From Candidatus Scalindua sp. (lineage in GTDB: Bacteria; Planctomycetota; Brocadiia; Brocadiales; Scalinduaceae): a DNA stretch of 32,000 bases. Where the stretch lies: assembly GCA_031316235.1 (NCBI GenBank), contig JALDRA010000001.1, forward strand, positions 930,001-962,000. Direction: 5' to 3'. The translations under genes and the position numbers were made by a program. Shown piece after piece: positions 7,082-27,471 of this stretch. A model generated the notes under the pieces. The model was not told where the DNA came from and did not search any database. It worked only from the letters and a program-made list of their open reading frames with translations. The number at the start of each line of letters is the position of its first letter. The stretch's first letter is position 1.

Positions 7082-7322
7082 AAGTTTGAATCTACGATAA
7101 TGATGTTTTAACGTATATTTCATAAAGAAGAGCTAAAAAACAAGAAATTGTCGGCTCAGGGCCCTTAGAGACTAAATCAACCAACTTCTCGGATAGTAAG
7201 CTCAGAAGGTCTTTTCGTACAAGGTATAAGGATGGAATTTAGTTGCTTTAGATGGATGATAGTGTTAGCATTTTTCTTGTATCCTTCCTTTGCATAACGA
7301 TTTGGCATGATAGGTATCTTGC

Positions 7323-7940
7323 TTGATAATCAATCAAGATGAGAAATTGATCCTTGAGAACTACGCTCCGCCTTGTGTTATTATCAACGAAAAGCATGAA
7401 ATTCTCTTTTTTTATGGACAGACAGAGAGATACTTATCGCCACCAACAGGAGTCGCCAGCTTCAATATCTTAAAGATGGTACGTGAAGACCTGCGTTACC
7501 CACTTACGATAGCACTTCAGAAAGCGATCAAACAGAGGACGGAGATTGTAACAGAGAGGCTAAAAACAAGATACGCAGAGAATTATGCAAAAGCGATTTT
7601 CGATACTATACGGGAGCCCCTTTTGGTGTTAGATGAGGAGCTGAAAGTTGTCTCTGCGAATAGATCATTTTACTCTGTATTCCACGTTACCGTTAAAGAA
7701 ACCAGGGGAAATTACCTCTATAATCTGGGTAACAACCAATGGGATCTCCCTGAGTTCAGAGAGTTGCTGGAAAAAATTCTCTCTGACAAAAGTGTATTTA
7801 ATAATTTTAAGATTGAACGTGAGTTTCCATCAGTAGGACAAAAAACCGTGCTCTTGAATGCACGTCAATTACTCTATCGTAATAAGAAGTTTATTCTCCT
7901 TGCCTTTGAGGATGTCACTCTTAACAGTAAGAGCATATGA
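7323..7940 (+). CDS. Stand-alone double-PAS fragment, of the type found after the CheB-CheR domains in CheB/CheR-fusion sensors
   Basis: 205 aa with a TTG start directly after an in-frame TAG (7311-7313). ENYAPPCVIINEKHEILFFYGQTERYLSPPTG..FNILKMVREDLR and REPLLVLDEELKVVSANRSFYSVFHVTVKETRGNYLYNLGNNQWDLPEFRELLEKIL match my recollection of those sensors. Its stop overlaps the next ATG (ATGA at 7937-7940). Confidence 0.6.
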   Translation: MIINQDEKLILENYAPPCVIINEKHEILFFYGQTERYLSPPTGVASFNILKMVREDLRYPLTIALQKAIKQRTEIVTERLKTRYAENYAKAIFDTIREPLLVLDEELKVVSANRSFYSVFHVTVKETRGNYLYNLGNNQWDLPEFRELLEKILSDKSVFNNFKIEREFPSVGQKTVLLNARQLLYRNKKFILLAFEDVTLNSKSI

Positions 7941-10087
7941 AAAAAAGAGCCTCTCAACAGGAACAAGAGTTCGAGCTCCGAAAAAGAGCTGAGACAAGGT
8001 TAAAGTCTCAGGTGCAGGTTTCGGAAGAGATGTCAAATAGCGACATGAAAAAACTGATTCATGAACTGGAGGTCCATCAGGTTGAGCTCCAGATGCAGAA
8101 TGATGAACTGCTTAAAACACAGATGAAACTTGAAGAGTCCCGAGAGAGATATGCCAATCTCTATGACTTTGCACCAGTTGGTTACCTTACCTTTGACAGA
8201 GATGGAGTGATACGGGAGGCAAACCTCACCATTGCTGATCTGTTGGCAACAAAAAGGAACCTTCTCATCAATAGCCTATTTCACCATTTTGTTAAGAGAG
8301 AGGACCAAGACATATTTTATCTGCATAGGAAGAGGATCTTTGAGGGAAAAAAAGCAGAGACCTGCGAGCTAAAATTAAAGGGAAAAGATGATAGAGAGTG
8401 GTATGTCCGATTAGATAGCGTGCGAGTGCAGGATTCTCGAAATAACAGCACCTGTAGAACCGTTATAACGGACATCACCGGGCAGAAAAAGATGGAGAAT
8501 CTATTAAAAGAGTCTGAAGAAAGGCATCGTAAACTTATTGAAACGGCACAAGACGCAATTGTATGTGATGTTAATCAGGTAATTACCGATTGGAACAGAT
8601 CCGCAGAGAAGATCTTTGGGTATTCAAAACGGGAAATAATAGGACAACCGATATCACTCCTTATTCCTGAGAAATATAGGGAAGATCATAGCGAGGGAGT
8701 AAGGCGATATCTAAAGACAGGTAAAACTAAGATAATAGGTAAAACAGTAGAAATCTCAGGAGTGACGAAAGAGGGTGTTGAAATACCGTTAGAAATATCT
8801 ATAACCCATCAAAAACTGAGAAACGAAAAGCACCTATTTACGGCCATCATCCGAGATATCACTGAGCGTAAAGAGGCGATTAAGGCATTGGAACAGAGCG
8901 AGGAAAAATATAGAACCCTTGTAGAGACGATACCTGATATAGTATACAAGATCGATGAGAATGGGTATTTTACCTTTGTAAACAACTCTATACGGAATTT
9001 AGGCTATGAGCCGGAAGAGCTTTTAGGAAAACATTTTAGTCAGATATTACACCCGGATGACGTTAATAACTTGAGCCGGTCCGTAGTCTTAGAGAAGTAT
9101 TCAGGCATCAAGACGAAAGAGATGGATACACCAAAACTCTTTGATGAACGAAGGTCGAAAAAAAGAATGACAAGAAACCTTGAGGTGCGGTTAGTAACAA
9201 AGAATCAAGTGAGAGCAAAAGGTGATATCGGAGGAAGGAGGGGATTATTAACCTCCTTTGGTGAAATAGTAGCTACCGGACACTATTACGATAATGGACA
9301 CAATCATAGCAGGAGATTCGGAGGAACGGTGGGCATTATCATAGATATTACAGAAAAGATAAAATTGCAGGCGGAAATGATACGAGCAGGTCAATTGGCA
9401 TTGATAGGAGAGCTGGCAGCAGGTGTTGCCCACGAGATTAACAATCCCATATACTCCATGATAAATTTAGCCCAACTTATTACGGATGAAAGCGATAAGG
9501 ATAGCAGGCCATATACGTTTGGTAAATTGATTATGGAAGAGGGTAACCGTATAGCAGATTTAACCGCAGACCTTGTCTCTTTGTCGAGAAGTACAGATGG
9601 CCCAAAAAAACCGGTCCCTATACATGAACTCATCTCCAACTCTTTTAAACTGATCGGGATGCAGTTGGAAAAGGACCATATCACTATTAAGGTTAATATC
9701 CCAAAAGAGATACCCCCCCTCATCGTAAATCCACAGGAGATCCATCAGGTATTTTTGAATCTTATCCAAAATGCGCGATACGCCTTAAATGAGAAATATC
9801 CCGGTAGAGACAAAGACAAGATACTTGAAATTTCATGTAACACAGTGTTCATTGACGATCACCAATATGTCCGAATTATATTTTTTGACCGAGGAATCGG
9901 AATTCCGGAAGAGATCCTGCACAGAGTAAAAAGCCTCTTCTTTACGACGAAACCTCCCAACAAGGGAACCGGTATTGGCTTAAGTGTAAGTAAAACTATC
10001 ATTCATAATCATGGTGGCGTAATCACGATAGAGAGCATACGGGGAAAATTTACAAAGGTTGTAATTGATCTGCCCGTAACAGAATAA
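7937..10087 (+). CDS. Cytoplasmic multi-PAS sensor histidine kinase
   Basis: 716 aa with no hydrophobic segment. It has the coiled-coil ELEVHQVELQMQNDELLKTQMKLEESRERY, several PAS S-boxes, the H-box AAGVAHEINNP, the N-box FLNLIQNARYAL, and the G-boxes DRGIGIP and GTGIGLSVS. Confidence 0.9.
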   Translation: MKKRASQQEQEFELRKRAETRLKSQVQVSEEMSNSDMKKLIHELEVHQVELQMQNDELLKTQMKLEESRERYANLYDFAPVGYLTFDRDGVIREANLTIADLLATKRNLLINSLFHHFVKREDQDIFYLHRKRIFEGKKAETCELKLKGKDDREWYVRLDSVRVQDSRNNSTCRTVITDITGQKKMENLLKESEERHRKLIETAQDAIVCDVNQVITDWNRSAEKIFGYSKREIIGQPISLLIPEKYREDHSEGVRRYLKTGKTKIIGKTVEISGVTKEGVEIPLEISITHQKLRNEKHLFTAIIRDITERKEAIKALEQSEEKYRTLVETIPDIVYKIDENGYFTFVNNSIRNLGYEPEELLGKHFSQILHPDDVNNLSRSVVLEKYSGIKTKEMDTPKLFDERRSKKRMTRNLEVRLVTKNQVRAKGDIGGRRGLLTSFGEIVATGHYYDNGHNHSRRFGGTVGIIIDITEKIKLQAEMIRAGQLALIGELAAGVAHEINNPIYSMINLAQLITDESDKDSRPYTFGKLIMEEGNRIADLTADLVSLSRSTDGPKKPVPIHELISNSFKLIGMQLEKDHITIKVNIPKEIPPLIVNPQEIHQVFLNLIQNARYALNEKYPGRDKDKILEISCNTVFIDDHQYVRIIFFDRGIGIPEEILHRVKSLFFTTKPPNKGTGIGLSVSKTIIHNHGGVITIESIRGKFTKVVIDLPVTE

Positions 10088-10094
10088 AAAAAAC

Positions 10095-11786
10095 ATGAAA
10101 AGAGAAATCCTCATAGTTGATGATGAAAAATCCATTCGATTCACCGTAAAGGAGTTTCTGTTAAAAGAGGGATATAAGGTTTATACTGCTGAGAATTTTG
10201 ACGAAGCAGTAAAAACAATTACTACGGAACATCTGGACACCGTTTTATCGGATATTGCTTTAGAAGAAAAGACAGGCATCGACATCTTAAAAGAGGTGAA
10301 AGAGAGACGTCTGAATTGTCCGGTGATCCTGTTCACGGGATACCCTGATGTGGAGACTGCATCAGAAGCGGTTCGTCATGGAGCCTACGACTATATAACA
10401 AAGCCCATTAAAAAAGAGGCACTGCTGCATACTATTTCCAATGCGTTACAGTACAAAACCCTGGTAGAGGAGCGAAATCGGGTCCGTACCAATCTTGAAG
10501 CTATTTTTAAAAGTGTCAAAGATGCCATCATAACAGTGGATAAGGACTTGAAAGTTATTGAGGTGAATGAAGCAGCGAATGCAATCTGTGGTTTTTCACG
10601 TGAAGAAGCCACAGGAAGATCTTTTGACTCAATTCCAGACAGATGTTGCGGGCAATGTATAGAGGCCATGAAAAAAACGATAGAAGAGAAACGACCCATT
10701 GAAATGTATCACATCGAGTGTAAGCATAAGATCCACAATGGACAGGTTGTCTCTCTCAATACATTCCCTTTAATAGACGGGAATAGTCGTCTTTCCGGCT
10801 GTGTCATGATCGTAAAAGATGAGACCCGTACCCATGAGTTAGAAAGAGAGTTAAAGGTGCGACAGCGTTTTTTTAATATTGTAGGGAAAGATGATAAGAT
10901 ACAGACGCTCTACTCGTTAATAGAGCACTTAAAAGATATTGATACGAACGTACTCATTACCGGAGAGACCGGTACGGGGAAAGAACTTATCGTCGAAGCT
11001 CTGCATTACAGCGGCATACGGAGTAAAGGACCGTTAGTAAAGGTAAACTGTTCCGCTTTACCGGAAAGCCTTCTTGAAAGCGAGCTTTTCGGACATGTTA
11101 AGGGTGCATTTACGAGCGCTGTTACCGATAAGGTGGGCCGGTTCAAACAAGCCGATGGAGGTACGATATTTCTCGATGAAATTGGTGACGTATCTTTAAC
11201 TGTGCAGCAGAGACTCCTTCGGGTGCTTCAGGAAAAAGAGTTTGAGCGCGTGGGGGAATCTAAAACAACGAAGGTAGATGTGCGTATCGTGGCGGCAACC
11301 AATCAGGACCTTAAAGAAAAAGTGAGGCGGAGTGAATTCCGAAACGACCTCTATTATCGGCTGAAAGTAGTGGTATTAACTCCACCGCCACTCAGAGATA
11401 GACGAAAAGACATACCACTTCTGGTTGAACACTTTATAAAAAAATTCAACCAGAAGTTTAAAAAGCATATTGAAGCCCTTTCTCCAGATGTGTATAAGCT
11501 CTTTATGAATTATGAGTGGCCCGGAAATGTCAGAGAGTTGGAGAATACCCTAGAGCACTCCTTTATCCTCTGTCATGAGCGCATCATTACCATTGAGGAG
11601 CTTCCCGTTGAACTGAGAGAGATAAAAACCTCTCCTGGTGAAAATGCTAAGACTAATGAATCCGAGACAATCTTGCAGGCACTGGAAAAAAGCCACTGGA
11701 ATAAGTCCCTCGCAGCCAGTTTCCTGGGTGTATCCCGGAGGACCATCTACAATAAGATCAAAGAGTACAATTTACAACATAAATAA
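10095..11786 (+). CDS. Sigma-54-dependent transcriptional activator (REC-PAS-AAA+-HTH)
   Basis: The receiver domain has ILIVDDE and VLSDIAL. The PAS domain carries RCCGQC. AAA+ motifs are [23 protein letters not shown] (a GAFTGA variant) and [10 protein letters not shown]. The C-terminal Fis-type HTH is [19 protein letters not shown]. Confidence 0.92.
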
Positions 11787-11800
11787 CTCCCCCGGTAGCG

Positions 11801-11869
11801 CACATTTCACACTTTGTACATTTCACACTTTGTGCAAATTGCACACTTTGAGCACGTTTCAAACTATCC
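11801..11869 (+). promoter_or_regulatory. Four tandem ~17-bp repeats containing a 7-1-7 palindrome; candidate activator or operator sites
   Basis: TTTCACACTTTGT occurs twice (11805-11817, 11821-11833), followed by TTGCACACTTTGA (11838-11850) and the degenerate TTTCAAACTATC. TGTGCAA-A-TTGCACA at 11831-11845 has perfect dyad symmetry. The array starts 15 bp after the activator stop codon. Confidence 0.4.
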
Positions 11870-11965: not shown

Positions 11966-11980
11966 TGGCATATGTTTTGT
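11966..11980 (+). promoter_or_regulatory. Possible sigma-54 promoter (TGGCAT-N5-TTGT)
   Basis: The -24/-12 spacing is correct, but the -12 element is GT rather than the conserved GC. It lies upstream of the response-regulator gene, with repeat A (12014-12153) in between. Confidence 0.35.
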
Positions 11981-12013: not shown

Positions 12014-12153
12014 TATACTCATCTCATAATGGTTTCCGGATAAAATCTGAGATAAAAAGGAGCGGGTCAAGCCCCCGGCGTCTTTTGTCCGGTTTTACCG
12101 GCAACTGAGATTTCGTTTCCGGTAAAACCAAAAACCAAAGCAGTTTCAGTATA
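12014..12153 (+). repeat. Family-A repeat (diverged, 140 bp) in the leader of the response-regulator gene
   Basis: It runs from TATACTCATCTCATAATGGTTTCCGGATAAAATCTGAGATAAAA to TTTCCGGTAAAACCAAAAACCAAAGCAGTTTCAGTATA. Confidence 0.8.
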
Positions 12154-12192
12154 TCTGGCAGGGGATATTTAAGAGAGAGGAGGCTTGTTGTT

Positions 12193-12567
12193 ATGACTGT
12201 TGTTCTCATTGCAGAAGGCAATAAAAACCAACGCTTGCTTTATGAGCAGGAATTAAGCATCGAAGGCTATGAGGCCATAACTGCAGCAACTGGCAGGGAG
12301 GCCTTGGATCAAGTTCAAGAACTGCATCCTGACATAATTGTAATGGATATAAGCATGCCAAAGATGGATGTTCTTGAAGCAATTGGCAAGATTACAGGTA
12401 AAAGCAGGAGTACGCCGATTATTATACACACCGCTTATAGCCAATATAAGGAGAACTTTATGTCATGGGCTGCCGATGCTTACCTTGTTAAATCCTCAGA
12501 TCTGACTGAATTAAAGAAAACAATCAATGATTTGCTTAAAGAGAAATCAGGAGCTGCTCTAATGTAA
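12193..12567 (+). CDS. Single-domain response regulator (CheY-like receiver)
   Basis: 124 aa with RBS GAGGAGG. Phospho-acceptor context is IIVMDISMP, with conserved HTAY and YLVKS. The N-terminal acidic pocket is atypical (LIAEGN instead of DD/DE). Confidence 0.85.
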   Translation: MTVVLIAEGNKNQRLLYEQELSIEGYEAITAATGREALDQVQELHPDIIVMDISMPKMDVLEAIGKITGKSRSTPIIIHTAYSQYKENFMSWAADAYLVKSSDLTELKKTINDLLKEKSGAALM

Positions 12568-12719
12568 ATTAAAAAAACATAACAGTAACTGGAAAATACT
12601 TATGGAGCGTCGTTTATTTTTAGGAGCATCCGTTATAAATGAGAAATAGTTATAACCACCCAAACACTGATAAGAATACGAGAGAAACAAAAGACCAACC
12701 TTACCATTTAGGAGTACCG

Positions 12720-12914
12720 ATGGCGAGAGAACATAAAAAAAGGATGTGCTTAACATGTGGGAAGAGGTTTCTCAGCAAATTCCCTCACAATCGTATTTGC
12801 GCACACTGTAACATGATCAACAATACAATAATAGCAGAAGAGCACTCTGTTACTATTAGATCTGAAGATTTAGCGCAAAGGATGGGACACTATCTATGTG
12901 AGGGGGAACTTTGA
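12720..12914 (+). CDS. Small C4 zinc-ribbon protein (64 aa), function unknown
   Basis: The ATG at 12720 follows AGGAG, and I judge the track start at 12639 to be an upstream extension. It has two CxxC pairs: CLTCGKRFLSKFPHNRICAHC. Confidence 0.5.
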   Translation: MAREHKKRMCLTCGKRFLSKFPHNRICAHCNMINNTIIAEEHSVTIRSEDLAQRMGHYLCEGEL

Positions 12915-13062
12915 ACAGAGGGGTTACAGGTGAAGACTCACCATAATTCAGACGAACCAAAGGCCCGCATAATGCATGGGATTCAGGCACAAGTGTATTG
13001 CACGAGCTTACAATTTTAGCGTCTTTATTTAATGTGCAACTTTTTTAAGAGGGAGTTTAGTA

Positions 13063-13491
13063 ATGGTAAAAAATTTAGAAAAAAGCGGTACAAATTTGGA
13101 AAAGGGAATAATCGAGAAAGATAACCTCAGCAAAAATTGTGTTAAAGCGGAATCACAACCAGTGAAAGATAGAACGAGAAATGGCGGGATAAAAAAAGAG
13201 TACGTTAACGATAAAAATCTCTGCAGGGTTACGTTTACACTTCCCAAAGAAGCTACCAACGGGTCGGAGAGTGTCTCTCTCGTAGGCGATTTTAATAATT
13301 GGGATAGCCGTGCCAACCCTATGGAAAAGGGTAAAGATGGGGGGTTTGTCACCGTATGTGATCTAGAGCCGGGGAGGGAATTCCAGTTTCGCTACCTAAT
13401 CGATGATTCGATATGGGAAAATGACTGGTGCGCTGACAGATATGTTAAGAGTTGCTATGGTGACAGCGATAATTCAGTAGTTATAACCTAA
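13063..13491 (+). CDS. CBM48 / AMPK-beta glycogen-binding-type (early set) domain protein
   Basis: VTFTLPKEATNGSESVSLVGDFNNWDSRANPMEKGKDGGFVTVCDLEPGREFQFRYLIDDSIWENDWCAD matches the E-set/CBM48 pattern. RBS is GAGGGAG. Confidence 0.7.
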   Translation: MVKNLEKSGTNLEKGIIEKDNLSKNCVKAESQPVKDRTRNGGIKKEYVNDKNLCRVTFTLPKEATNGSESVSLVGDFNNWDSRANPMEKGKDGGFVTVCDLEPGREFQFRYLIDDSIWENDWCADRYVKSCYGDSDNSVVIT

Positions 13492-13532: not shown

Positions 13533-13672
13533 TATACTCATCTCATAATGATTTTCGGATAAAATCCGAGATAAAATTGAGCGAGTAAAGTCCTCGGCGT
13601 TTTTTGTCCGGGGATACCAGCAACCAGGATTTGGTTTCCGGTAAAACCGAAAACCAAATCAGTTTTTGTATA
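13533..13672 (+). repeat. Family-A repeat, full length (140 bp; used as reference copy)
   Basis: It runs from TATACTCATCTCATAATGATTTTCGGATAAAATCCGAGATAAAATTGAGCGAGTAAAGTCCTCGGCG to CCAGGATTTGGTTTCCGGTAAAACCGAAAACCAAATCAGTTTTTGTATA. Confidence 0.85.
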
Positions 13673-13673
13673 T

Positions 13674-13706
13674 TACCGCAACGCCGTAGATGGGTAGTTT
13701 TTGTTC
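13674..13706 (+). repeat. Family-B right-end fragment abutting the A copy
   Basis: TACCGCAACGCCGTAGATGGGTAGTTTTTGTTC matches the right ends of the 6133-6264 and 21899-21992 copies. No B left half is present. Confidence 0.65.
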
Positions 13707-13954: not shown

Positions 13955-14314
13955 TAATCTCAAATTATGTTAATGAAAGAGAGTATTACAAGATGTGGGT
14001 ACTAGAGGGTGCTAAATCAAGAACAACAAGTTATTCTTTCCTGGGCCCTTAGGTATATACTCCTCGCTAGCTCATAAGCATCACCCCACTCTTTTTTTAT
14101 CCAAATATGTAAACAGCTTTTGAACTGATTTATTTCTGTTTTTCATACCTAACTTTTATTTAAAATGAATATTTTGGGTAATACAATTCCCATTTAATTA
14201 GTTGTTGAATCCTGTATAACACTTGAATTCGTTGAGACTTAATAATAATTTAAAGAATTTATTTAAAAAATATTCATACTGTTCACACCCTAGAGAATAC
14301 AAGTTAACATAATA

Positions 14315-14332
14315 TGGGTACTAATATACCCA
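14315..14332. promoter_or_regulatory. Candidate upstream activator site (6-6-6 palindrome TGGGTA-CTAATA-TACCCA)
   Basis: A perfect inverted hexamer pair 64 bp upstream of the sigma-54 promoter. The word TGGGTA(C/A)TA also occurs at 13996-14004 and 14175-14183. Confidence 0.4.
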
Positions 14333-14395
14333 ATTTGATAAATATTTATATCCTGAAAACATATAAGTCTCATCATAACAATTACATAGATGTTT

Positions 14396-14410
14396 TGGCA
14401 CATTCGTTGC
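14396..14410 (+). promoter_or_regulatory. Sigma-54 (-24/-12) promoter of the hsp20 cluster
   Basis: TGGCACATTCGTTGC is an exact match to TGGCAC-N5-TTGC with canonical spacing. It lies 103 nt upstream of an ATG preceded by AAAGGAGG, and an AT-rich tract lies upstream. Confidence 0.8.
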
Positions 14411-14512
14411 GTATTGGAAATCCAGAAAAAATACCTTTTAAAAAAGCGAAAATTTGTTGAGGTGCTGCCTTATTTAATTACATATCTATTATATTTTGAA
14501 AGGAGGTTTAAA

Positions 14513-14932
14513 ATGTTATTACCAAGTGTATTTCAAGACTTATCGGGGCTACAGGAAGCAGTGGACCGTTCGTTTAACACCGACTTCTTTAATAGCTTAA
14601 CAAGCGGGCGGGGTGTTTATCCGGCAGTTAACATCTTTGAAAAGGATGGTGACACCGTTTTAGTTGCGGAATTACCTGGAGTGAAAAAGAAGGATATCAA
14701 CATTGAAGTAAAAGAAAACACTGTAAGACTTTCAGGGGAACGTGCGATAAAGTACGACAAAAACGTTAGTTACCACCGCGCTGAACGTAACTCCTCTAAA
14801 TTTGACAGGACACTGAAACTGCCAATAAACGTTCAGACTGACAAGGTAAAAGCGGAGTATAAAGACGGTCTTCTTGTTCTCTGTCTACCACGTGCCGAAA
14901 AAGATAAACCAAAACAAATTACAATCCAATAA
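14513..14932 (+). CDS. Hsp20/alpha-crystallin small heat-shock protein 1
   Basis: I place the start at 14513 (RBS AAAGGAGG), because the track start at 14390 would put the sigma-54 promoter inside the gene. Alpha-crystallin motifs are AELPGVKKKDINIEVKENTVRLSGER and DGLLVLCLPRAEK. Confidence 0.9.
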   Translation: MLLPSVFQDLSGLQEAVDRSFNTDFFNSLTSGRGVYPAVNIFEKDGDTVLVAELPGVKKKDINIEVKENTVRLSGERAIKYDKNVSYHRAERNSSKFDRTLKLPINVQTDKVKAEYKDGLLVLCLPRAEKDKPKQITIQ

Positions 14933-14952
14933 TTATCGGAAAGGAGGATATC

Positions 14953-15363
14953 ATGAACAATGAAACGAAAGCAGTTACCAAAACTGAAGATAAGAAACCT
15001 GAAAAGAGAGAATATGCTGGAGAGAGGACCGTACAGGGGAAATATTATGTCCCCAAGACTGATATTGCGGAAACAGAAAAAAACCTTGTGGTAACTATGG
15101 ACGTTCCTGGAGTACGAAAGGAAAACGTAAATATCACCCTTGAAAACAATAACCTGGAGGTTGATGCCAAAATAGATTTTTCACCCTATGAAAAACTCAA
15201 CCCGGTATATACCGAGTACAACGTCGGGCACTATACGAGGAGTTTCACTGTATCAAACATTATTGATACGAAGAACATTGATGCAAATCTCACAGATGGA
15301 GTGTTGACATTGACACTACCAAAGGCTCCTGAAGCACTGCCAAGAAAGATTGAGATTACCTAA
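14953..15363 (+). CDS. Hsp20/alpha-crystallin small heat-shock protein 2
   Basis: RBS is GGAAAGGAGG. Motifs are MDVPGVRKENVNITLENNNLEV and DGVLTLTLPKA. It starts 20 nt after hsp20-1. Confidence 0.88.
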   Translation: MNNETKAVTKTEDKKPEKREYAGERTVQGKYYVPKTDIAETEKNLVVTMDVPGVRKENVNITLENNNLEVDAKIDFSPYEKLNPVYTEYNVGHYTRSFTVSNIIDTKNIDANLTDGVLTLTLPKAPEALPRKIEIT

Positions 15364-15497
15364 CTCAGATCGACAGAGGGCTCCTTGGGCCAGGCAACAA
15401 TGAACTTGTGATCGACACACATTCACCATTGCGACGTAAATTAGAATAGTATTTTAAATGCTTATAATTTTAAATTTTAACAGAAAAGGAGGCTATC

Positions 15498-16004
15498 ATG
15501 GCTTTACGAGACTTAATAACATTGAACAGAAAAAAACAGCAACAGACGCAACCTGAACTTCAATCCCCTGTAGCTACGCTTCACAGGGAAGTTGATCAAT
15601 TATTTGACGATTTCTTAAGAAGTTTTGATAGATTTCCGTCTCTCCCTTTCAGGAAAGAGAGGCTATCTGATTTTTCACCAAAGATTAATGTTAGCGAAAA
15701 TGACAAAGAGATTGAAGTCACGGTAGAGGTACCGGGAATGGACCAGAACGACGTTGATGTCTCCCTGAGAGACGACGTGCTCACTATCAAGGGAGAAAAG
15801 AAACAGGAAAAAGAGGAAAAGGATAAAGAGTACTACCATGTAGAGCGGAGCTATGGATCTTTTTACCGTTCCCTTCAGGTTCCCTGTGAAGTTGACCAGG
15901 ATAATATCAATGCCGCATTTAAGAAAGGAGTACTTAAGATAACCCTGCCAAAGAGTATAAAAGCTCAGGAAAACGTGCGGAAGATTGAAGTAAAAGATGA
16001 ATAA
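15498..16004 (+). CDS. Hsp20/alpha-crystallin small heat-shock protein 3
   Basis: RBS is AAAGGAGG. Motifs are VEVPGMDQNDVDVSLRDDVLTIKGEK, ERSYGSFYRSLQVP and GVLKITLPK. A TTAGAA-16-TATAAT (15441-15468) lies upstream. Confidence 0.9.
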   Translation: MALRDLITLNRKKQQQTQPELQSPVATLHREVDQLFDDFLRSFDRFPSLPFRKERLSDFSPKINVSENDKEIEVTVEVPGMDQNDVDVSLRDDVLTIKGEKKQEKEEKDKEYYHVERSYGSFYRSLQVPCEVDQDNINAAFKKGVLKITLPKSIKAQENVRKIEVKDE

Positions 16005-16011
16005 GTAAGAA

Positions 16012-16073
16012 ACCGCTTACTATGGAAGTTAATATTTTGAACTACTTTTTTAAATGCTTCCATAGTAAGCGGT
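16012..16073 (+). terminator. Perfect 17-bp stem with a 28-nt loop after hsp20-3 (attenuator, terminator or processing site)
   Basis: ACCGCTTACTATGGAAG (16012-16028) is the exact reverse complement of CTTCCATAGTAAGCGGT (16057-16073). No U-tract follows, so the terminator call is weak. Confidence 0.35.
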
Positions 16074-16287
16074 CAAATGGCAACAAGCAAAACTTTGTTT
16101 AGCAAGGTATGACAAGTTATATTTCAGTATGAAAAAATCATCCTTCGTTTCTGCTCAGGGCACTCGGCATAACTTATTGGTTGATACTACGAAAAAAAGA
16201 AAAAGAGGCAAGTGTATAAGTAAACTTTTTGAAGATTTCGATAACAAAGCGTCGGTATGTAGGTACTTATCAGAAAAGGAAATTGAA

Positions 16288-16890
16288 ATGTTAAAATACC
16301 AGATAATTATCGGTGTATTATGTTTTGCCCTTGGTGCAGCAGTTCTACTTGCAGTTCAAAACTTTAGAAACGATGAGAAACACGACATACATACAGATGA
16401 TAAATTATTCGATCATAAAGGAAACGTGGACAAAACATTAGATTCATTTTTTAATGATGATTTTTTAAGGTCCAGTAAATCCCCTTTTGAAGAAATGAGG
16501 AGAATGCAGGAGAGTATGATGAGTCAGTTCGGTAAACTCGATGATGATCCCGGTGATGGAATGTTTGGTTCTTGGTTTAAAAAGAGGTTTGGCGGAGGTA
16601 AGCCTGGAGATATACAAACGAGAGAGGATGAAGATTTTGTCTACTATGATGTTGTTATCAAGGACCTTTCCAATAAAAAAATTGACATAAAGGTGGAAGA
16701 CGGACAGATAAGAATTTCCGGTACAATTGAAACAAGATCTGATAATAAGGAAAAGGATGCAACTTCCAGTCAGTTTTATAGCTCAACATTCCATCGATCA
16801 TTTCCTGTTCCCAATGGGGTCGATGGTGATAGGGTACAGATGGAACAGGAAGGCGAGAAAATGATTATCAAATTTCCAAAGATCAAGTAA
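16288..16890 (+). CDS. Membrane-anchored alpha-crystallin-domain protein
   Basis: I prefer the ATG at 16288 (RBS GAAAAGGAAA) to the track start at 16129. N-terminal MLKYQIIIGVLCFALGAAVLLAV is a single hydrophobic helix. The C-terminus FVYYDVVIKDLSNKKIDIKVEDGQIRISGTIE...FHRSFPVPNGVDGDRVQMEQEGEKMIIKFPK follows the sHSP fold pattern. Confidence 0.65.
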   Translation: MLKYQIIIGVLCFALGAAVLLAVQNFRNDEKHDIHTDDKLFDHKGNVDKTLDSFFNDDFLRSSKSPFEEMRRMQESMMSQFGKLDDDPGDGMFGSWFKKRFGGGKPGDIQTREDEDFVYYDVVIKDLSNKKIDIKVEDGQIRISGTIETRSDNKEKDATSSQFYSSTFHRSFPVPNGVDGDRVQMEQEGEKMIIKFPKIK

Positions 16891-16963
16891 GAGAAAAAAC
16901 TAATAATCATTTGAGAAATAAACATCAAACTACCAGCTAAACGTAAGAAAGGAGAAACGGGAA

Positions 16964-17674
16964 ATGAATCCAATTCGTGATATTTTTCTCAATCGTAAAA
17001 ACAAGACAATTGTTGGTGTGGCTGCATTACTGATACTGACCATCTTTACCTACACGATTGGTGAAGCCTCAGATAAGATAAAGGAGGGTGTAGGACAGAG
17101 GGACCGATCATCCATTACTACAGGCAGCGGAAAGCTCTATCAAACAACCGTAGAGCGGCACACTGAAGGCACTTTGTCTGCACAGGATTTACATCAGGCA
17201 TCTCTTCTCACTTCACGTATCGTAAAACACCTGAACGAGGCAACAAAAGGCCTCTTAGATGAAAACCCGGAAGCTGCAAAGCCGAATATCGTAAGTGCAC
17301 AGAAACTGGTGGAGGTGGTAAGAGAATTACTCCCCGTAACAACGGTAACGACCACTGTAAGAGACGCAAGAGGTAAAGAGGTATACCGAGACATCGATAC
17401 GGTACAAGACGACAAGATCCACCTGTACAGTAAAATGATTGCCATAGAAATTCTCCAACCGATCATTGATGCCAAGGAAGAAGATGTGGATGTTAAAGGT
17501 CTGAAGCTTGCAGACGCCGAAATTATTCATACATCGGTTCTTGCAGACCTCAGCTATATTGAACGAAAATTGAACCGTGCAGAGGCGTTATACTCATCTC
17601 ATAATGGTTTTAGTATAGTACTGATTATGAGCGAAACAGATCGTGGGAACAAATTCGAAACTGAGGTTGTTTGA
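16964..17674 (+). CDS. Exported or anchored helical protein, tentatively YfdX-like; carries a 9-codon repeat-derived insertion
   Basis: RBS is AAAGGAGAAA, with the N-terminal hydrophobic anchor IVGVAALLILTIFTYTIG. The pattern HLNEATKGLLDENPEAAKPNIVSAQKLVEV ... LADLSYIERKLNRAEAL resembles YfdX repeats from memory only. Codons YSSHNGFSI are encoded by the mini A element. Confidence 0.45.
   Translation: MNPIRDIFLNRKNKTIVGVAALLILTIFTYTIGEASDKIKEGVGQRDRSSITTGSGKLYQTTVERHTEGTLSAQDLHQASLLTSRIVKHLNEATKGLLDENPEAAKPNIVSAQKLVEVVRELLPVTTVTTTVRDARGKEVYRDIDTVQDDKIHLYSKMIAIEILQPIIDAKEEDVDVKGLKLADAEIIHTSVLADLSYIERKLNRAEALYSSHNGFSIVLIMSETDRGNKFETEVV
17589..17617 (+). repeat. Family-A mini element (29 bp: left end fused to right end) inside a coding region
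   Basis: TATACTCATCTCATAATGG+TTTTAGTATA consists of the two A termini with the interior missing. Confidence 0.75.
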
Positions 17675-17803
17675 AATTTGAAGGGAGAAACTTCTGTTAC
17701 AGATGAAAACACTTTGGATTAATTGGTGAGTATTGATAATTTTTTCAGTCGGGTAACTAAATTTGCATTACAGCAAATACGGATAGCTTTTCAGGAGAAT
17801 AGG

Positions 17804-19288
17804 ATGAAGACAAATATAAGTATGCGGTTTATCTTTTTGTTGTTCCTGTTTATTTTTACAGCAGGGCCGGTATATGCATTAGAAGAGAAGGGTGTCAAAA
17901 ACTTACGCCAGACCAGTAAGGCCTTTGCCGCTGTTGCGCGGGAGGTATCACCATCGGTGGTTTTCATACGGGTTGAGGCTAAAGTTCCCGGTTCGTCAAT
18001 TAACCGGTTTCAGTTACCTTTTGGCAATGAGTGGCCCTTTGAAGATGACCTCTTCAGACGTTTCTTTGGGGACAAATTCCCTGGAACACCTCGGGAGCCA
18101 CGCTCCGAGGAACCGCGTGGCGAAAATAGAACCATGGGACAGGGGTCCGGTTTCGTGTTTGCGGCAAAAGACGGATTTCTATCCGAGAAGACATACATAA
18201 TAACAAACAACCACGTTGTAGAGAATGCTGACGAGATCAAGGTACAATTTCAAGATGGCGCTGAATATAAAGCTAAAATCACGGGACGTGATCCCCAGTC
18301 AGACGTTGCGGTTATAGAAATCAAAACCGGAGATATAAAAGCTGCCAGATTGGGAGACTCTTCCGATCTGGAGGTTGGGGAGTGGGTTGTAGCAATTGGA
18401 AACCCATTCGGACTGAGCCACACTCTTACTGTAGGTGTGGTGAGCGCTACGGGGCGTACCAGTATCGGTATCAATGATTATGAAGATTTCATCCAGACCG
18501 ATGCTGCGATCAATCCGGGCAATTCCGGCGGACCATTGGTCAATCTGGATGGTGAGGTGGTGGGTATCAATACTGCCATCTTTAGCCGCAGTGGAGGCTA
18601 TATGGGAGTTGGCTTCGCTATCCCGATCAATCTAGCCAGGGAGATAGCCAACCAGTTAATCGATAAAGGCGAGGTAACGCGTGGTTATCTTGGCATAGTG
18701 ATTCAACCGCTTACTGCTGACCTTGCCAAATCATTTAATATTGAAATGGGTAAGGGTATACTTATCTCTCAGGTATCAGAGGACTCCCCTGCAGAGAAAG
18801 CGGGTTTACGCCAGGGAGATGTTATCATTGCTTATCGCGGAGAACCGGTAACGAATGTCGGCAATTTCCGCAACAGGATAGCGCTCACTCAACCAGACAG
18901 CCGGGAGGAGCTAACGATCCTGAGGGAGGGAAAGCAGAAGACACTTACCATAACAATTGGCAAGCTCACCAAAGACAAACTTATTGCACAGTCTCCGGCC
19001 CAAAGCACAGAGCAGCTTGGTTTGACGGTACAGACGCTTACACCACAGTTGGCGGAACAATTTGGAGCAAAAGAAGATGAAGGCGTCGTGGTGACGGAAG
19101 TCAAACCCGGATCCATCGCTGCAATGGCGGGTATCAGGTCTGGCACGGTGATCATGCAGGTAGACCGTAAACCAGTAAAAAGCGCTGCCGAGTTTAAGAG
19201 TGCAGTTGAGAAGAGCAGCAGTGACAAGAGTGTACTGTTGCTCATTCAGAGAGGAGAGATACAGCAATATATTGTGTTGAGTTGGTAA
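17804..19288 (+). CDS. htrA: HtrA/DegP-family periplasmic serine protease with two PDZ domains
   Basis: Start is at 17804 (RBS AGGAG) with signal peptide MKTNISMRFIFLLFLFIFTAGPVYA. The catalytic triad contexts are TNNHVV, SDVAVIE and GNSGGPLVN. Two PDZ segments are present (GILISQVSEDSPAEKAGLRQGDVI and GVVVTEVKPGSIAAMAGIRSGTVI). Confidence 0.93.
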   Translation: MKTNISMRFIFLLFLFIFTAGPVYALEEKGVKNLRQTSKAFAAVAREVSPSVVFIRVEAKVPGSSINRFQLPFGNEWPFEDDLFRRFFGDKFPGTPREPRSEEPRGENRTMGQGSGFVFAAKDGFLSEKTYIITNNHVVENADEIKVQFQDGAEYKAKITGRDPQSDVAVIEIKTGDIKAARLGDSSDLEVGEWVVAIGNPFGLSHTLTVGVVSATGRTSIGINDYEDFIQTDAAINPGNSGGPLVNLDGEVVGINTAIFSRSGGYMGVGFAIPINLAREIANQLIDKGEVTRGYLGIVIQPLTADLAKSFNIEMGKGILISQVSEDSPAEKAGLRQGDVIIAYRGEPVTNVGNFRNRIALTQPDSREELTILREGKQKTLTITIGKLTKDKLIAQSPAQSTEQLGLTVQTLTPQLAEQFGAKEDEGVVVTEVKPGSIAAMAGIRSGTVIMQVDRKPVKSAAEFKSAVEKSSSDKSVLLLIQRGEIQQYIVLSW

Positions 19289-19498
19289 GCCATGAAAATT
19301 AGGGAAGCGTCTATATTTTCAATCTAATTACTGAATGGAGGCGATGTATTCAAAGATTGTGAAAAGATTACGTCTTTTGAGATAAAGGAAGGAGACTACA
19401 TTAAGGCCAGGCATTCTCATATTGGAGACAGTGCAATCCTGCTGGATACCTGTCTGATTGTTAAAAAGTAGTGTACGTTTTAACTAAACGCTCACATA

Positions 19499-19534
19499 AT
19501 TCATTGGCCGCTTGAATCCCGGCGGCCAATGAAT
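19499..19534. terminator. 13-bp-stem hairpin between convergent genes (possible bidirectional terminator)
   Basis: ATTCATTGGCCGC (19499-19511) and GCGGCCAATGAAT (19522-19534) are exact complements, followed by TTTAATAA. The U-tract is modest. Confidence 0.45.
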
Positions 19535-19658
19535 TTAATAAGTTGTCTGCTGGATTTTTCAACCAATCTAAAACAGATATTCTTACACTAGTAATGAATA
19601 CCACATTTGTTGGCGCCACCCAAAGAGGTCAGGCATCGGCCCACATTCACTTTCCTCA

Positions 19659-20041: not shown

Positions 20042-20153
20042 TATACTCATCTCATACTGGATTTCGGATAAAATCCGAGATAAAATTGAGCGAGTATACC
20101 TTCACCAGGATTTGGTTTCCGGTAAAACCGAAAACCAAATCGGTTTTAGTATA
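20042..20153 (+). repeat. Family-A repeat, 112-bp subfamily
   Basis: It has the same ends and both hairpins as the 140-bp copies, but the central ~36 nt are replaced by TACCTTCA. By my count it differs at about 7 of 112 positions from the reverse complement of 26003-26114. Confidence 0.85.
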
Positions 20154-20285
20154 TTATAATCCATACACACTATGGCAACTTATTTTGTATAATTAAGAGA
20201 GGCAATGCGTGCAAGATTACCTTATCGCTACTCGGTACTCCCTATAGCTGAAATTGGGCGGACTAAATCAAAGGAAAGGAAAAAA

Positions 20286-26965: not shown

Positions 26966-27471
26966 GTATAATCTGCCTTTACCTGACAATTAGAATAAAA
27001 GGAAACAACTCTCACATGTTAAACGAAACATCGAGAAAGACTCCTATTCTATTAGGTAATTCATACTATTTCAAAGATTATATTCCTGTTATTTCACAAA
27101 TTGTTTTTCATCGGGTCAGTCCGTACTGCCAGTGCATATAAGAAATTTATGCCTTTTTTTAGTTCTGACCAGGCCACGTAAAATAGGATTGTCACCTGTT
27201 GAGGTGTTCATTATTTAGACAATTTGTTGCCAATTTAAACGCCAGCAACCACTTCACGTCCACCATGAAGAGAAGACAGGAATCAGAAAAAGACAGTATC
27301 TTTATATTGATAAACCACTTAGAGAAAAACGAGATATAAGCAGCTTTATACGCATAAATGGCGCATTTGTTGCTAATACTAAATGTTGAGTAATTACTCT
27401 TGTACAGAAATTTATAAAGAACAGGTATTGAGGTGGTACGCCAGAAATACATTTTTCAGGAGGGTATAATT

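What the first reader, a model, noticed from the sequence alone, without database searches (positions are those of the whole stretch)
13996..19534. Sigma-54-driven small-heat-shock / HtrA cluster next to its probable kinase-activator pair: a mixed cytoplasmic and extracytoplasmic proteostasis module
An exact TGGCAC-N5-TTGC (14396-14410) precedes hsp20-1. Upstream lie a perfect TGGGTA-N6-TACCCA dyad (14315-14332) and two more TGGGTA(C/A)TA words (13996, 14175) in an AT-rich tract, which is the classic enhancer-plus-bending layout. Downstream, all on one strand, are three cytoplasmic Hsp20 genes, a membrane-anchored alpha-crystallin protein, an exported YfdX-like protein and HtrA, ending at a hairpin (19499-19534). 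Gaps of 134, 283 and 129 nt leave room for internal promoters (TTAGAA-16-TATAAT at 15441-15468). I see no CIRCE or HAIR-type heat-shock operator. The only sigma-54 activator in the window is 2.6 kb upstream, paired with a PAS kinase. The only sigma-54 control of sHSP genes I am aware of is a reported promoter in front of E. coli ibpB. A dedicated two-component/bEBP circuit driving ATP-independent chaperones for both compartments plus a protease would be an undescribed regulon architecture.
Basis: partly seen in the sequence, partly recalled or inferred. Interest (0 to 1): 0.7.

Follow-up and report, generated by a model that had tools for sequence, protein, structure and literature searches.

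The report
Sigma-54 heat-shock operon with orphaned enhancer
In this anammox bacterium (Candidatus Scalindua) a cluster of small heat-shock protein genes and a periplasmic protease gene lies behind a real, conserved sigma-54 promoter, but its enhancer sites match those of a PAS-sensor activator encoded about 620 genes away, not the neighbouring kinase/activator pair, which has its own separate sigma-54 promoter.

Summary
The TGGCAC-N5-TTGC at 14396-14410 occurs in 0 of 100 shuffles.

The promoter and two GGGnA-N6-TnCCC dyads (centred about -98.5 and -238.5) recur upstream of hsp20-1 orthologues at eight loci in seven anammox genomes. In 211 kb of anammox DNA the dyad core occurs 15 times against 1.2 expected. 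Fourteen of these lie within 230 nt upstream of an hsp20 sigma-54 promoter.

The activator assignment is probably wrong. In five genomes this control region lies between the hsp20 operon and a divergent ~510-aa PAS-AAA+-HTH activator with no receiver domain. The window genome encodes that activator about 620 genes away.

The neighbouring kinase/REC-activator pair is followed in five genomes by a different enhancer, tandem 17-18-nt GCACATTTCACACTTTGT repeats at 11800-11865. A second sigma-54 promoter (P1, 11966-11980) follows and drives REC, zinc-ribbon-like and CBM48 genes. In two genomes it also appears to drive hsp20 genes.

Only hsp20-1 and hsp20-2 are constant downstream. Sigma-54 promoters before chaperone genes in Planctomycetota were already predicted in silico in 2025. 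sHsp + YfdX + DegP clusters are known from the proteobacterial tLST island. I file this as a new member of a known kind, of moderate interest.

The parts
7937..10087 (+). Histidine kinase (3 PAS, HisKA, HATPase_c), partner of the REC-type activator
   Evidence: Pfam. Syntenic with the activator in L003, L008, L009 and L040.
10095..11786 (+). REC-PAS-AAA+-HTH_8 sigma-54 activator (GAFTSA variant of the GAFTGA loop)
   Evidence: Pfam Sigma54_activat 230 bits. No NCBIfam equivalog cut-off reached. GAFTSA is shared by the closest orthologues.
11800..11865 (+). P1 enhancer: 3.8 tandem copies of GCACATTTCACACTTTGT, containing the palindrome TGTGCAaatTGCACA
   Evidence: TRF. Conserved directly after the REC-activator stop codon in L003, L008, L009 and L040, and again at L008 (minus strand) and L004.
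11966..11980 (+). P1: second sigma-54-type promoter, TGGCATatgttTTGT (GT instead of GC at -12)
   Evidence: the only such site in the window, expected 0.12. Conserved as TGGCAY-N5-TTGT in L003, L008 (twice) and L004. S. japonica has TGGCAA-N5-TTGC and S. rubra TGGCAT-N5-TAGC.
12193..12567 (+). Single-domain receiver (REC) gene, first gene after P1
   Evidence: Pfam. Same position in L003, L008 and L040.
12639..12914 (+). Small Cys-rich (CxxC...CxxC) ORF, no family hit
   Evidence: The equivalent stretch is present in L008 between the REC and CBM48 genes.
13063..13491 (+). CBM48/AMPK1_CBM-like carbohydrate-binding protein
   Evidence: Pfam. In L008 it directly precedes two hsp20 genes in a P1-driven unit.
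13533..13675 (+). Copy of a ~143-nt intergenic repeat with a hairpin plus T-run. It may terminate P1 transcripts before P2.
   Evidence: The termination role is inference only.
14084..14146 (-). Possible 21-codon relic of the 5' end of the PAS-activator gene (MKNRNKSVQKLFTYLDKKRVG*)
   Evidence: It starts 29 nt from the distal dyad. In L041, L043 and L045 the PAS-activator start lies 17-33 nt from that dyad. It resembles the P0241 N-terminus, MAKKKYSMQKLLIS. Not BLAST-significant.
14175..14192 (.). Distal enhancer dyad TGGGTAatacaaTTCCCA, centre about -238.5
   Evidence: A counterpart lies at -245 to -249 in L041, L043 and L045.
14315..14332 (.). Proximal enhancer dyad TGGGTActaataTACCCA, centre about -98.5
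   Evidence: The dyad-to-TGGCA gap is 63-64 nt in the window, L003 and L004, and 72-74 nt in the five PAS-activator-linked loci.
14363..14371 (+). Conserved ATAAGTNTC block in the AT-rich spacer (80% AT). No canonical IHF consensus.
   Evidence: Alignment A1. IHF scan negative.
14396..14410 (+). P2: sigma-54 promoter TGGCACattcgTTGC. Predicted start about 14422.
   Evidence: Conserved in L003, L004, L041, L042, L043, L045 and L047.
14513..14932 (+). hsp20-1 (139 aa)
   Evidence: Pfam HSP20. Orthologues listed.
14953..15363 (+). hsp20-2 (136 aa). Follows hsp20-1 at every locus examined except L004.
15498..16004 (+). hsp20-3 (168 aa)
   Evidence: Orthologue in S. rubra. A homologue (~70% nucleotide identity) lies in the P1-driven unit of L008.
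16288..16890 (+). Alpha-crystallin-domain protein with an N-terminal membrane anchor (200 aa)
   Evidence: Pfam HSP20 32 bits. Start set by the S. rubra and L004 orthologues. Topology not tested.
16964..17674 (+). YfdX-family gene truncated at its 3' end, with an N-terminal hydrophobic segment
   Evidence: Homology to the ~330-aa relatives ends at about nt 17600, where a fragment of the 143-nt repeat begins (17589-17617).
17801..19288 (+). HtrA/DegP (Do-family serine protease, 2 PDZ domains) with a signal-like N-terminus
   Evidence: S. rubra orthologue.
19498..19536 (+). Stable conserved hairpin at the end of the cluster, without a U-tract
   Evidence: 98% identical in L003 despite the deletion of hsp20-3 to htrA there.

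Best explanation
The hsp20 cluster is a sigma-54-dependent stress operon with two separate activator inputs.

P2 input. RNA polymerase-sigma-54 binds P2 (14396-14410) as a closed complex. It is remodelled by an AAA+ activator bound to two GGGnA-N6-TnCCC dyads at about -98.5 and -238.5. The DNA between them is AT-rich and would loop or bend. This control region is the orthologue of the divergent intergenic region that, in other Brocadiales, separates the hsp20 operon from a one-component PAS-AAA+-HTH activator. In this genome that activator (P0265, MDR4503305) is encoded about 620 genes away and would act in trans. The window therefore holds an 'orphaned' copy of its enhancer.

P1 input. The neighbouring kinase/REC-activator pair most likely acts on a second sigma-54 promoter, P1 (11966-11980). 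Its enhancer is a tandem array of 17-18-nt repeats (11800-11865). P1 drives REC, Cys-rich and CBM48 genes. It could read through into the hsp20 genes. In two other genomes hsp20 genes sit directly in the P1-type unit.

Shown: the motifs, their conservation, their spacing, and which activator gene each lies next to. Inferred: which protein binds which site, the inducing signal, and co-transcription of hsp20-3, the membrane alpha-crystallin protein, the YfdX-like gene and HtrA with hsp20-1 and hsp20-2.
For: 1. An exact -24/-12 element occurs in 0 of 100 shuffles. It is conserved at eight loci in seven genomes while the flanking DNA diverges.
2. The dyad core GGGnA-N6-TnCCC occurs 15 times in 211 kb of anammox DNA against 1.2 expected. 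Fourteen of these lie within 230 nt upstream of an hsp20 sigma-54 promoter. In L004 the proximal dyad has changed symmetrically, to TGGGCA...TGCCCA.
3. The dyad-to-promoter distance is fixed and the dyad spacing is shared: -98.5/-238.5 in the window against -107.5/-245.5 to -248.5 in L041, L043 and L045.
4. A PAS-AAA+-HTH activator gene is divergently adjacent in S. japonica, Kuenenia, a Brocadiales MAG, a Scalinduaceae MAG and a Brocadiaceae MAG. A decayed copy abuts hsp20-1 in S. rubra. At least 10 contig-length coincidences link activator hits and hsp20-1 hits, including contigs of only 3.9-12 kb.
5. The PAS-activator group is tight (at least 72% identity). Its HTH, TGLNRRTILNKMKKFS, is nearly invariant.
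6. The window genome has an orthologue: same 4,149,782-bp contig and same accession series.
7. The P1 enhancer and promoter are conserved right after the REC-activator stop codon in five genomes. P1 repeats are absent from the PAS-activator loci, and GGG dyads are absent from L008, L009 and L040.
8. In L008 and L009 the hsp20 genes follow P1-type promoters with no P2 element in between.
Against: - No expression, transcription-start or binding data exist for any of these loci.
- rpoN could not be looked for in this genome.
- The P0265 locus could not be fetched, so I cannot show that it keeps its own hsp20 partner and dyads in this genome.
- In the window and L003 both activator types are compatible with proximity. 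The two HTH motifs are similar ([12 protein letters not shown] against NRRTILNKMKKF), so cross-binding is not excluded.
- P1 has GT rather than the near-invariant GC at -12.
- The REC-activator carries GAFTSA rather than GAFTGA.
- The putative relic of the PAS-activator gene is not statistically significant.
- Gaps of 134, 283 and 126 nt, and variable downstream gene content, leave room for internal promoters.
Confidence: 0.6

Rival explanations
1. The adjacent kinase/REC-activator pair binds the TGGGTA dyads and is the dedicated activator of P2 and the whole six-gene cluster.
For: It is the only activator in the window. The kinase-activator pair lies within 10 kb of hsp20 genes in five genomes. 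The HTH motifs of the two activator families are similar.
Against: - The identical dyad/promoter module sits beside a different activator in five genomes that have no REC-activator nearby.
- L004 has the dyads more than 1.4 Mb from the REC-activator orthologue.
- The REC-activator has its own conserved enhancer and promoter, with no GGG dyads.
- S. japonica and L008 link the REC-activator to hsp20 genes without any GGG dyad.
Confidence: 0.15
2. Both activators act at P2. The PAS-activator acts through the dyads. The REC-activator acts by read-through from P1, or by forming mixed oligomers, so that the two-component signal and the PAS signal are integrated on one operon.
For: - P1 and P2 are on the same strand, 2.4 kb apart, with no strong intrinsic terminator predicted apart from the hairpin plus T-run inside the repeat copy at 13533-13675.
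- hsp20 genes are embedded in P1 units in L008 and L009.
- In S. rubra both activator genes flank the cluster.
Against: The repeat element between CBM48 and P2 carries a terminator-like hairpin. Read-through is untested. Hetero-oligomers are pure speculation here.
Confidence: 0.2
3. The dyads are operators of a repressor, or a binding site for some other factor, and the -24/-12 match is not the functional promoter.
For: The proximal dyad could also form a hairpin on the minus strand (listed as terminator-like). A few weak sigma-70-like hexamer pairs lie upstream (14159-14187 and 14282-14310).
Against: - The -24/-12 element is conserved base for base at eight loci, whereas the sigma-70-like matches number no more than chance (28 found, 20.5 expected).
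- The dyads sit at enhancer distances and next to an AAA+ activator gene.
- There is no CIRCE or HAIR operator.
Confidence: 0.05

Closest known systems
In-silico sigma-54 regulon survey in Planctomycetota (PLoS One 2025, PMC12316311)
   Same: [quoted passage not shown] That is the same promoter class in front of the same gene class in the same phylum.
   Different: It is a statistical enrichment at COG level, mainly for Planctomycetia and Phycisphaerae. In the passages read, it names no activator, no enhancer motif and no anammox locus.
E. coli ibpB sigma-54 promoter
   Same: A sigma-54 promoter in front of a small heat-shock gene. Sigma-54 ChIP is positive at ibpB (PMC2831329, citing Kuczynska-Wisnik 2001).
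   Different: The ibpB site is a weak internal promoter (TGGTAA-N5-TTGC) that supplements sigma-32. No dedicated activator or enhancer is known for it. Here the promoter is near-consensus, with two conserved dyads and a linked activator family.
Myxococcus xanthus HsfB/HsfA - lonD
   Same: A histidine-kinase / NtrC-like response-regulator phosphorelay that directly activates a heat-shock gene (PMC9109919, citing Ueki and Inouye 2002). This is a precedent for the kinase/REC-activator/P1 branch. In L008 a Lon-family gene sits next to a P1 element.
   Different: The target is a Lon protease rather than sHSPs, in a different phylum. No sequence orthology was tested.
PspF / psp system and other one-component sigma-54 stress activators
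   Same: A sigma-54 activator without a receiver domain, encoded divergently from the stress operon it activates, binding enhancer sites in the shared intergenic region (established knowledge of PspF; NCBIfam PspF models score 240-273 bits, below cut-off).
   Different: PspF has no sensor domain and is controlled by PspA. The anammox activator has an N-terminal PAS domain. The targets are alpha-crystallin chaperones rather than PspA-type membrane proteins.
[quoted passage not shown]
   Same: One gene cluster combining two cytoplasmic sHsp20 holdases with periplasmic YfdX proteins and a DegP protease. That is a mixed cytoplasmic/envelope proteostasis set (PMC8290217).
   Different: The tLST core is dna-shsp20-clpG(K), plus HdeD, Trx and KefB. 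None of these is in the window. tLST is a mobile island and is not known to be sigma-54 dependent. The window cluster is chromosomal, and only hsp20-1 and hsp20-2 are constant across relatives.

Membership tests
Sigma-54 (-24/-12) promoter class | GG and GC doublets exactly one helical turn apart within TGGCAC-N5-TTGCW | tested here: met
   TGGCACATTCGTTGCG at 14396-14411, 15 of 16 consensus positions.
Sigma-54 (-24/-12) promoter class | Conservation of the element in orthologous upstream regions | tested here: met
   TGGCAY-N5-TTGC at the same place at eight loci in seven genomes.
Sigma-54 (-24/-12) promoter class | Upstream activator sites about 80-250 bp from the start | tested here: met
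   Dyads at -98.5 and -238.5, with conserved position and spacing.
Sigma-54 (-24/-12) promoter class | rpoN present in the genome | not testable with these tools
   Only indirect evidence. At least two intact sigma-54 activators are in this MAG. rpoN is reported in the planctomycete R. baltica (PMC2754498).
Sigma-54 (-24/-12) promoter class | Transcription start 12 nt downstream of the GC, and dependence on sigma-54 and an activator | not testable with these tools
   Needs TSS mapping or in-vitro transcription.
Bacterial enhancer-binding protein (NtrC-type AAA+ activator): PAS-type P0265 and its orthologues | Sigma54_activat AAA+ domain with GAFTGA loop, and C-terminal Fis-type HTH | tested here: met
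   Orthologues score 243-245 bits on Sigma54_activat and about 24 bits on HTH_8, above its cut-off of 22. GAFTGA or GSFTGA is present and the HTH is conserved. No named NCBIfam equivalog is reached.
Bacterial enhancer-binding protein: REC-type, window 10095-11786 | REC + AAA+ (GAFTGA) + HTH_8 | tested here: inconclusive
   All domains are present, but the loop is GAFTSA. The variant is shared by the closest orthologues. Whether it is functional is not known.
Small heat-shock protein (Hsp20/alpha-crystallin) | Alpha-crystallin domain above the Pfam gathering score | tested here: met
   77.6, 70.9, 93.5 and 32.1 bits against a cut-off of 20.8.
HtrA/DegP (Do family) | Trypsin-like protease domain plus two PDZ domains, above the TIGR02037 cut-off | tested here: met
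   502 bits against 416. Pfam Trypsin_2 plus PDZ.
YfdX | Pfam PF10938 above the gathering score | tested here: inconclusive
   The window protein scores 18.5 against 26.6, has no NCBIfam hit and no significant PDB hit (best E 0.5). However, 35 of 36 homologues hit YfdX, best E 8e-15. The window copy lacks the C-terminal ~110 residues of its relatives.
tLST / LHR island | Core dna-shsp20-clpG(K) operon, plus HdeD, Trx and KefB | tested here: not met
   No Clp-type disaggregase, HdeD, Trx or KefB among the ORFs of 11.7-20.3 kb.
HrcA/CIRCE and HspR/HAIR heat-shock repression | CIRCE or HAIR inverted repeat upstream | tested here: not met
   No CIRCE with up to 3 mismatches. The single HAIR-like hit, at 7318, is within chance.
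RNA thermometer (ROSE / fourU) in the hsp20 leader | Conserved structure that sequesters the Shine-Dalgarno sequence | tested here: not met
   No Rfam hit. The window leader's folding z-score is +0.33. Leader length and fold are not conserved (37-142 nt).

The most novel reading that the evidence does not exclude
In anammox bacteria (Brocadiales) a dedicated one-component PAS-sensor sigma-54 activator, acting through GGGnA-N6-TnCCC enhancers, would be the primary regulator of the small-heat-shock/holdase response. In Kuenenia grpE-dnaK lie just downstream as well. It would take the place that sigma-32, HrcA or HspR holds elsewhere. A second two-component sigma-54 circuit (kinase, REC-activator, tandem-repeat enhancer) would feed a different signal into an overlapping set of hsp20, CBM48 and protease genes. 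The PAS domain would then be the stress sensor, for redox state, a ligand or temperature. This would be a heat-shock control logic not described in any bacterium.
Probability: 0.3. Interest if true: 0.6.

Novelty: new member of a known kind. Interest (0 to 1): 0.45.

Why it matters
Anammox bacteria are central to the marine nitrogen cycle and to wastewater treatment, and they are sensitive to temperature, oxygen and salinity shifts. Almost nothing is known about how they regulate stress genes, and they cannot be manipulated genetically.

This analysis yields a conserved promoter, a defined enhancer motif and two candidate activators. Together they form a testable regulatory unit. The PAS-activator and its dyads can be tested in vitro or in a heterologous host. 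The motif can be used to enumerate the regulon in any anammox genome.

It also gives a concrete mechanism for a statistical observation, that chaperone genes in Planctomycetota tend to have sigma-54 promoters.

Finally, it is a caution for annotation. The nearest activator gene is not necessarily the cognate one. Here comparative genomics separates two sigma-54 circuits that lie within 3 kb of each other.

Tried and rejected
- Metagenome DNA-pattern scan for dyad + N58-70 + TGGCAY-N5-TTGC. It gave 30 hits, none from Scalindua or next to hsp20. Eight had an unrelated activator gene adjacent, with targets such as phage-tail-like sheath genes and a Na+/alanine symporter. This shows that GGGYA-type dyads about 60 nt from -24 are used elsewhere. 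It did not help with the regulon here.
- RNA thermometer in the 91-nt leader. The MFE pairs CCUUUU with the Shine-Dalgarno region, but z is +0.33, leader lengths vary from 37 to 142 nt, and Rfam has no hit. Rejected.
- IHF site between dyad and promoter. No WATCAR-N4-TTR match at any of eight loci. Only AT-richness and a short ATAAGTNTC block, the latter in the three closest loci.
- Relic of the PAS-activator gene upstream of the distal dyad. Position and N-terminal residues are suggestive, but tblastn is not significant. Kept only as a possibility.
- Fetching the PAS-activator locus of the window genome. The exact-sequence look-up failed. Only the contig length and accession series link it to this genome.
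- A distant PAS-activator homologue at 58% identity (L046). It sits next to AhpC and an M48 peptidase, with no dyads and no hsp20. The system therefore looks confined to Brocadiales.
- Internal sigma-54 promoters before hsp20-3, the membrane alpha-crystallin gene, the YfdX-like gene or htrA. None with up to 2 mismatches in an intergenic gap.
It is present but weak and not conserved.
- D. vulgaris sigma-54 regulome paper (PMC4641369). No hsp20 target is listed. The Chhabra 2006 heat-shock paper is not held.

Full report
**Source and gene content.** The window comes from a Candidatus Scalindua MAG, an anammox member of the Planctomycetota. Its REC-type activator and hsp20-1 are 100% identical to NCBI proteins MDR4503923 and MDR4503927, which lie on a 4,149,782-bp contig. 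All the following genes are on the + strand:

| Coordinates | Gene |
|---|---|
| 7937-10087 | PAS histidine kinase |
| 10095-11786 | REC-PAS-AAA+-HTH_8 sigma-54 activator |
| 12193-12567 | REC-only gene |
| 12639-12914 | small Cys-rich ORF |
| 13063-13491 | CBM48-like protein |
| 14513-16004 | three Hsp20 genes |
| 16288-16890 | alpha-crystallin protein with an N-terminal membrane anchor |
| 16964-17674 | YfdX-family ORF |
| 17801-19288 | Do-family HtrA |

Assignments rest.

**Check of the observation.**
- TGGCACATTCGTTGC lies at 14396-14410. An exact match appeared in 0 of 100 shuffles.
- TGGGTActaataTACCCA lies at 14315-14332.
- The 'word' at 14175 is in fact the left arm of a second dyad, TGGGTAatacaaTTCCCA.
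- The word at 13996 is not conserved.
- The hairpin at 19498-19536 is stable (dG -25.5 kcal/mol, z -4.3) but has no U-tract.
- There is no CIRCE or HAIR operator.
- The proposed internal sigma-70 promoter at 15441-15468 exists, but it is weak and not conserved.

**Is P2 real?** I fetched hsp20-1 orthologues with their flanks. At eight loci in seven anammox genomes, a TGGCAY-N5-TTGC element precedes the first hsp20 gene. The genomes are the window, Scalindua SCAELEC01, a Scalinduaceae MAG (two loci), S. japonica, Kuenenia, a Brocadiales MAG and a Brocadiaceae MAG. One or two GGGnA-N6-TnCCC dyads lie upstream of each.
- The proximal dyad is 63-64 nt (three Scalindua-type loci) or 72-74 nt (five loci) from the -24 element.
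- The distal dyad lies about 140 bp further upstream in the window, L041, L043 and L045.
- In L004 the proximal dyad has changed symmetrically, to TGGGCA...TGCCCA.
- In 211 kb of anammox DNA the dyad core occurs 15 times against 1.2 expected. Fourteen of these lie within 230 nt upstream of an hsp20 sigma-54 promoter.
- The spacer is 72-88% AT but has no canonical IHF site.

This is strong comparative evidence for a sigma-54 promoter with a bipartite enhancer.

**Which activator?** In S. japonica (L041), Kuenenia (L042), Brocadiales (L043/L044), Scalinduaceae (L045) and Brocadiaceae (L047), the gene divergent from the hsp20 operon is a ~510-aa PAS-AAA+-HTH activator. It shares this dyad-bearing intergenic region and has no receiver domain.
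- In S. rubra a decayed 342-aa copy abuts hsp20-1.
- These proteins form a tight orthologous group of at least 72% identity, dropping to 64% and then 58% or less outside it. Their HTH, TGLNRRTILNKMKKFS, is nearly invariant.
- At least ten contig-length coincidences link activator hits with hsp20-1 hits, including contigs of only 3.9-12 kb.
- The window genome has an orthologue, P0265 (MDR4503305). It is on the same contig and about 620 accession numbers from the cluster.
- Its locus could not be retrieved.
- A 21-codon ORF on the minus strand, 29 nt from the distal dyad (14146 to 14084), resembles the activator's N-terminus. It sits where that gene starts in the other genomes. It is not statistically significant.

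**The neighbouring kinase/activator pair has its own promoter.** Directly after the REC-activator stop codon lies a tandem array of 17-18-nt repeats (GCACATTTCACACTTTGT, 11800-11865). It includes the palindrome TGTGCAaatTGCACA. About 100 nt further on lies TGGCATatgttTTGT (P1, 11966-11980).
- The same arrangement follows the orthologous activator in SCAELEC01, the Scalinduaceae MAG, S. japonica and S. rubra. It recurs at two further sites in the Scalinduaceae genome.
- P1 precedes REC-only genes.
- In L008 the P1 unit continues through the Cys-rich ORF and CBM48 into two hsp20 genes. In S. japonica it runs into hsp20-1 and hsp20-2. No GGG dyad is present in either case.
- The two enhancer types never co-occur in one intergenic region.

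By the usual adjacency logic, the PAS-activator goes with the GGG dyads and the REC-activator goes with the repeats. The conserved synteny of the two-component pair with hsp20 genes in five genomes still supports a functional link. That link runs through P1, not through the dyads.

**Is the six-gene 'module' a unit?** Only hsp20-1 and hsp20-2 are constant.
- S. rubra has hsp20-1, -2, -3, HtrA and the membrane alpha-crystallin protein in a different order, without a YfdX gene.
- SCAELEC01 has lost hsp20-3 through htrA. It keeps a 62-nt htrA scrap and the terminal hairpin at 98% identity.
- L004 has hsp20-1, the membrane alpha-crystallin gene, a P1-type element and htrA remnants.
- In the Brocadiaceae locus htrA is separated from hsp20 by an opposite-strand hicAB pair.
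- Kuenenia has grpE-dnaK downstream instead.
- The window's YfdX-like gene is truncated at its 3' end, exactly where a fragment of a 143-nt intergenic repeat begins.
- No intergenic intrinsic terminator is predicted on the + strand within the cluster; the one + strand hit lies inside htrA. No further sigma-54 site lies in the gaps.

Co-transcription from P2 is therefore possible but unproven.

**Comparison with what is known.**
- A 2025 PSSM survey reported enrichment of sigma-54 promoters before GroEL/ES, IbpA-class sHSPs, GrpE and DnaJ/K in Planctomycetota (PMC12316311). The promoter-class/gene-class link is therefore not new, although that paper names no activator or enhancer in the passages read.
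- E. coli ibpB has a sigma-54 promoter (PMC2831329).
- Myxococcus HsfBA is a two-component NtrC-like system that activates the heat-shock gene lonD (PMC9109919).
- The proteobacterial tLST/LHR island combines two sHsp20, YfdX1/2 and DegP (PMC8290217). Its defining ClpG/K core is absent here.
- Neither activator reaches any NCBIfam equivalog cut-off.
- I found no paper describing the PAS-activator, its dyad or the P1 repeat enhancer in anammox bacteria. The library is limited to open-access texts.

**Verdict.** The enhancer most likely belongs to a PAS-sensor activator encoded elsewhere. The adjacent two-component activator controls a second, previously unnoticed sigma-54 promoter upstream. The fixed six-gene 'module' is not conserved. 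I file it as a new member of a known kind (activator/sigma-54 stress regulons), of moderate interest.

Noticed in passing
window 12014-12156, 13533-13675, 20042-20156; fragment 17589-17617: A ~143-nt intergenic repeat occurs three times in the same orientation, each copy just upstream of a start codon. It contains a hairpin (GATTTGGTTTCCGGTAAAACCGAAAACCAAATC) followed by a T-run. Many copies also occur in L003, L004 and L008, in both orientations. It has no Rfam match. It could be a MITE/REP-like element or a terminator-plus-promoter cassette.
   Followed up: partly
window 16964-17674: The YfdX-family gene is 236 aa, against about 330 aa in its relatives. Homology stops at about residue 212 (nt ~17600), where a fragment of the 143-nt repeat begins. 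The gene appears to have been truncated at its 3' end by a rearrangement.
   Followed up: yes
window 11966-11980 and L003, L008, L004 counterparts: The conserved P1 promoter has TTGT, not TTGC, at -12 (TGGCAY-N5-TTGT) at five sites in three genomes (window; L003; L008 twice and L004, which are the same genome). This is an unusual but conserved departure from the near-invariant GC.
   Followed up: partly
window 10095-11786: The REC-type activator carries GAFTSA instead of GAFTGA in the sigma-54 contact loop. The variant is shared by its closest orthologues (P0002, P0003, P0005, P0006), while more distant ones have GAFTGA.
   Followed up: partly
window 27359-27373: A second sigma-54-like element, TGGCGCATTTGTTGC, lies about 60-100 nt upstream of an MlaC-family gene (27433-28113). 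No GGG dyad and no P1 repeat lie upstream of it.
   Followed up: partly
window 19332-19480 and 19498-19536: After htrA lies the 3' remnant of a small exported-protein gene that is intact in L004 (14911-15294). It is followed by a very stable hairpin that is 98% conserved in L003, even though L003 has lost the 4 kb in between.
   Followed up: partly
window 12193-13491; L008 17398-14983 (minus strand): A REC-only protein, a small CxxC...CxxC protein and a CBM48/AMPK-beta-like carbohydrate-binding protein form a conserved unit behind P1. In L008 this unit continues into two hsp20 genes, next to a LonC-type gene. A glycogen-binding-module protein co-regulated with chaperones is unexplained.
   Followed up: no
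L040 8906-10001 (S. rubra): The PAS-activator is reduced to a 342-aa ORF with an internally deleted AAA+ domain and a truncated PAS domain. It abuts hsp20-1 with no promoter or dyads left. This is either a genuine decay of the circuit or an assembly artefact.
   Followed up: partly
L012, L019, L032 (metagenome contigs): Unrelated bacteria have an activator gene followed by a TGGGTA-N6-TACCCA dyad and a sigma-54 promoter in front of phage-tail-like (contractile injection system) sheath genes.
   Followed up: no
L004 10400-14800: This long-read Scalinduaceae assembly shows many broken reading frames (htrA, REC). They are probably indel errors. Gene calls from it should be treated with care.
   Followed up: no
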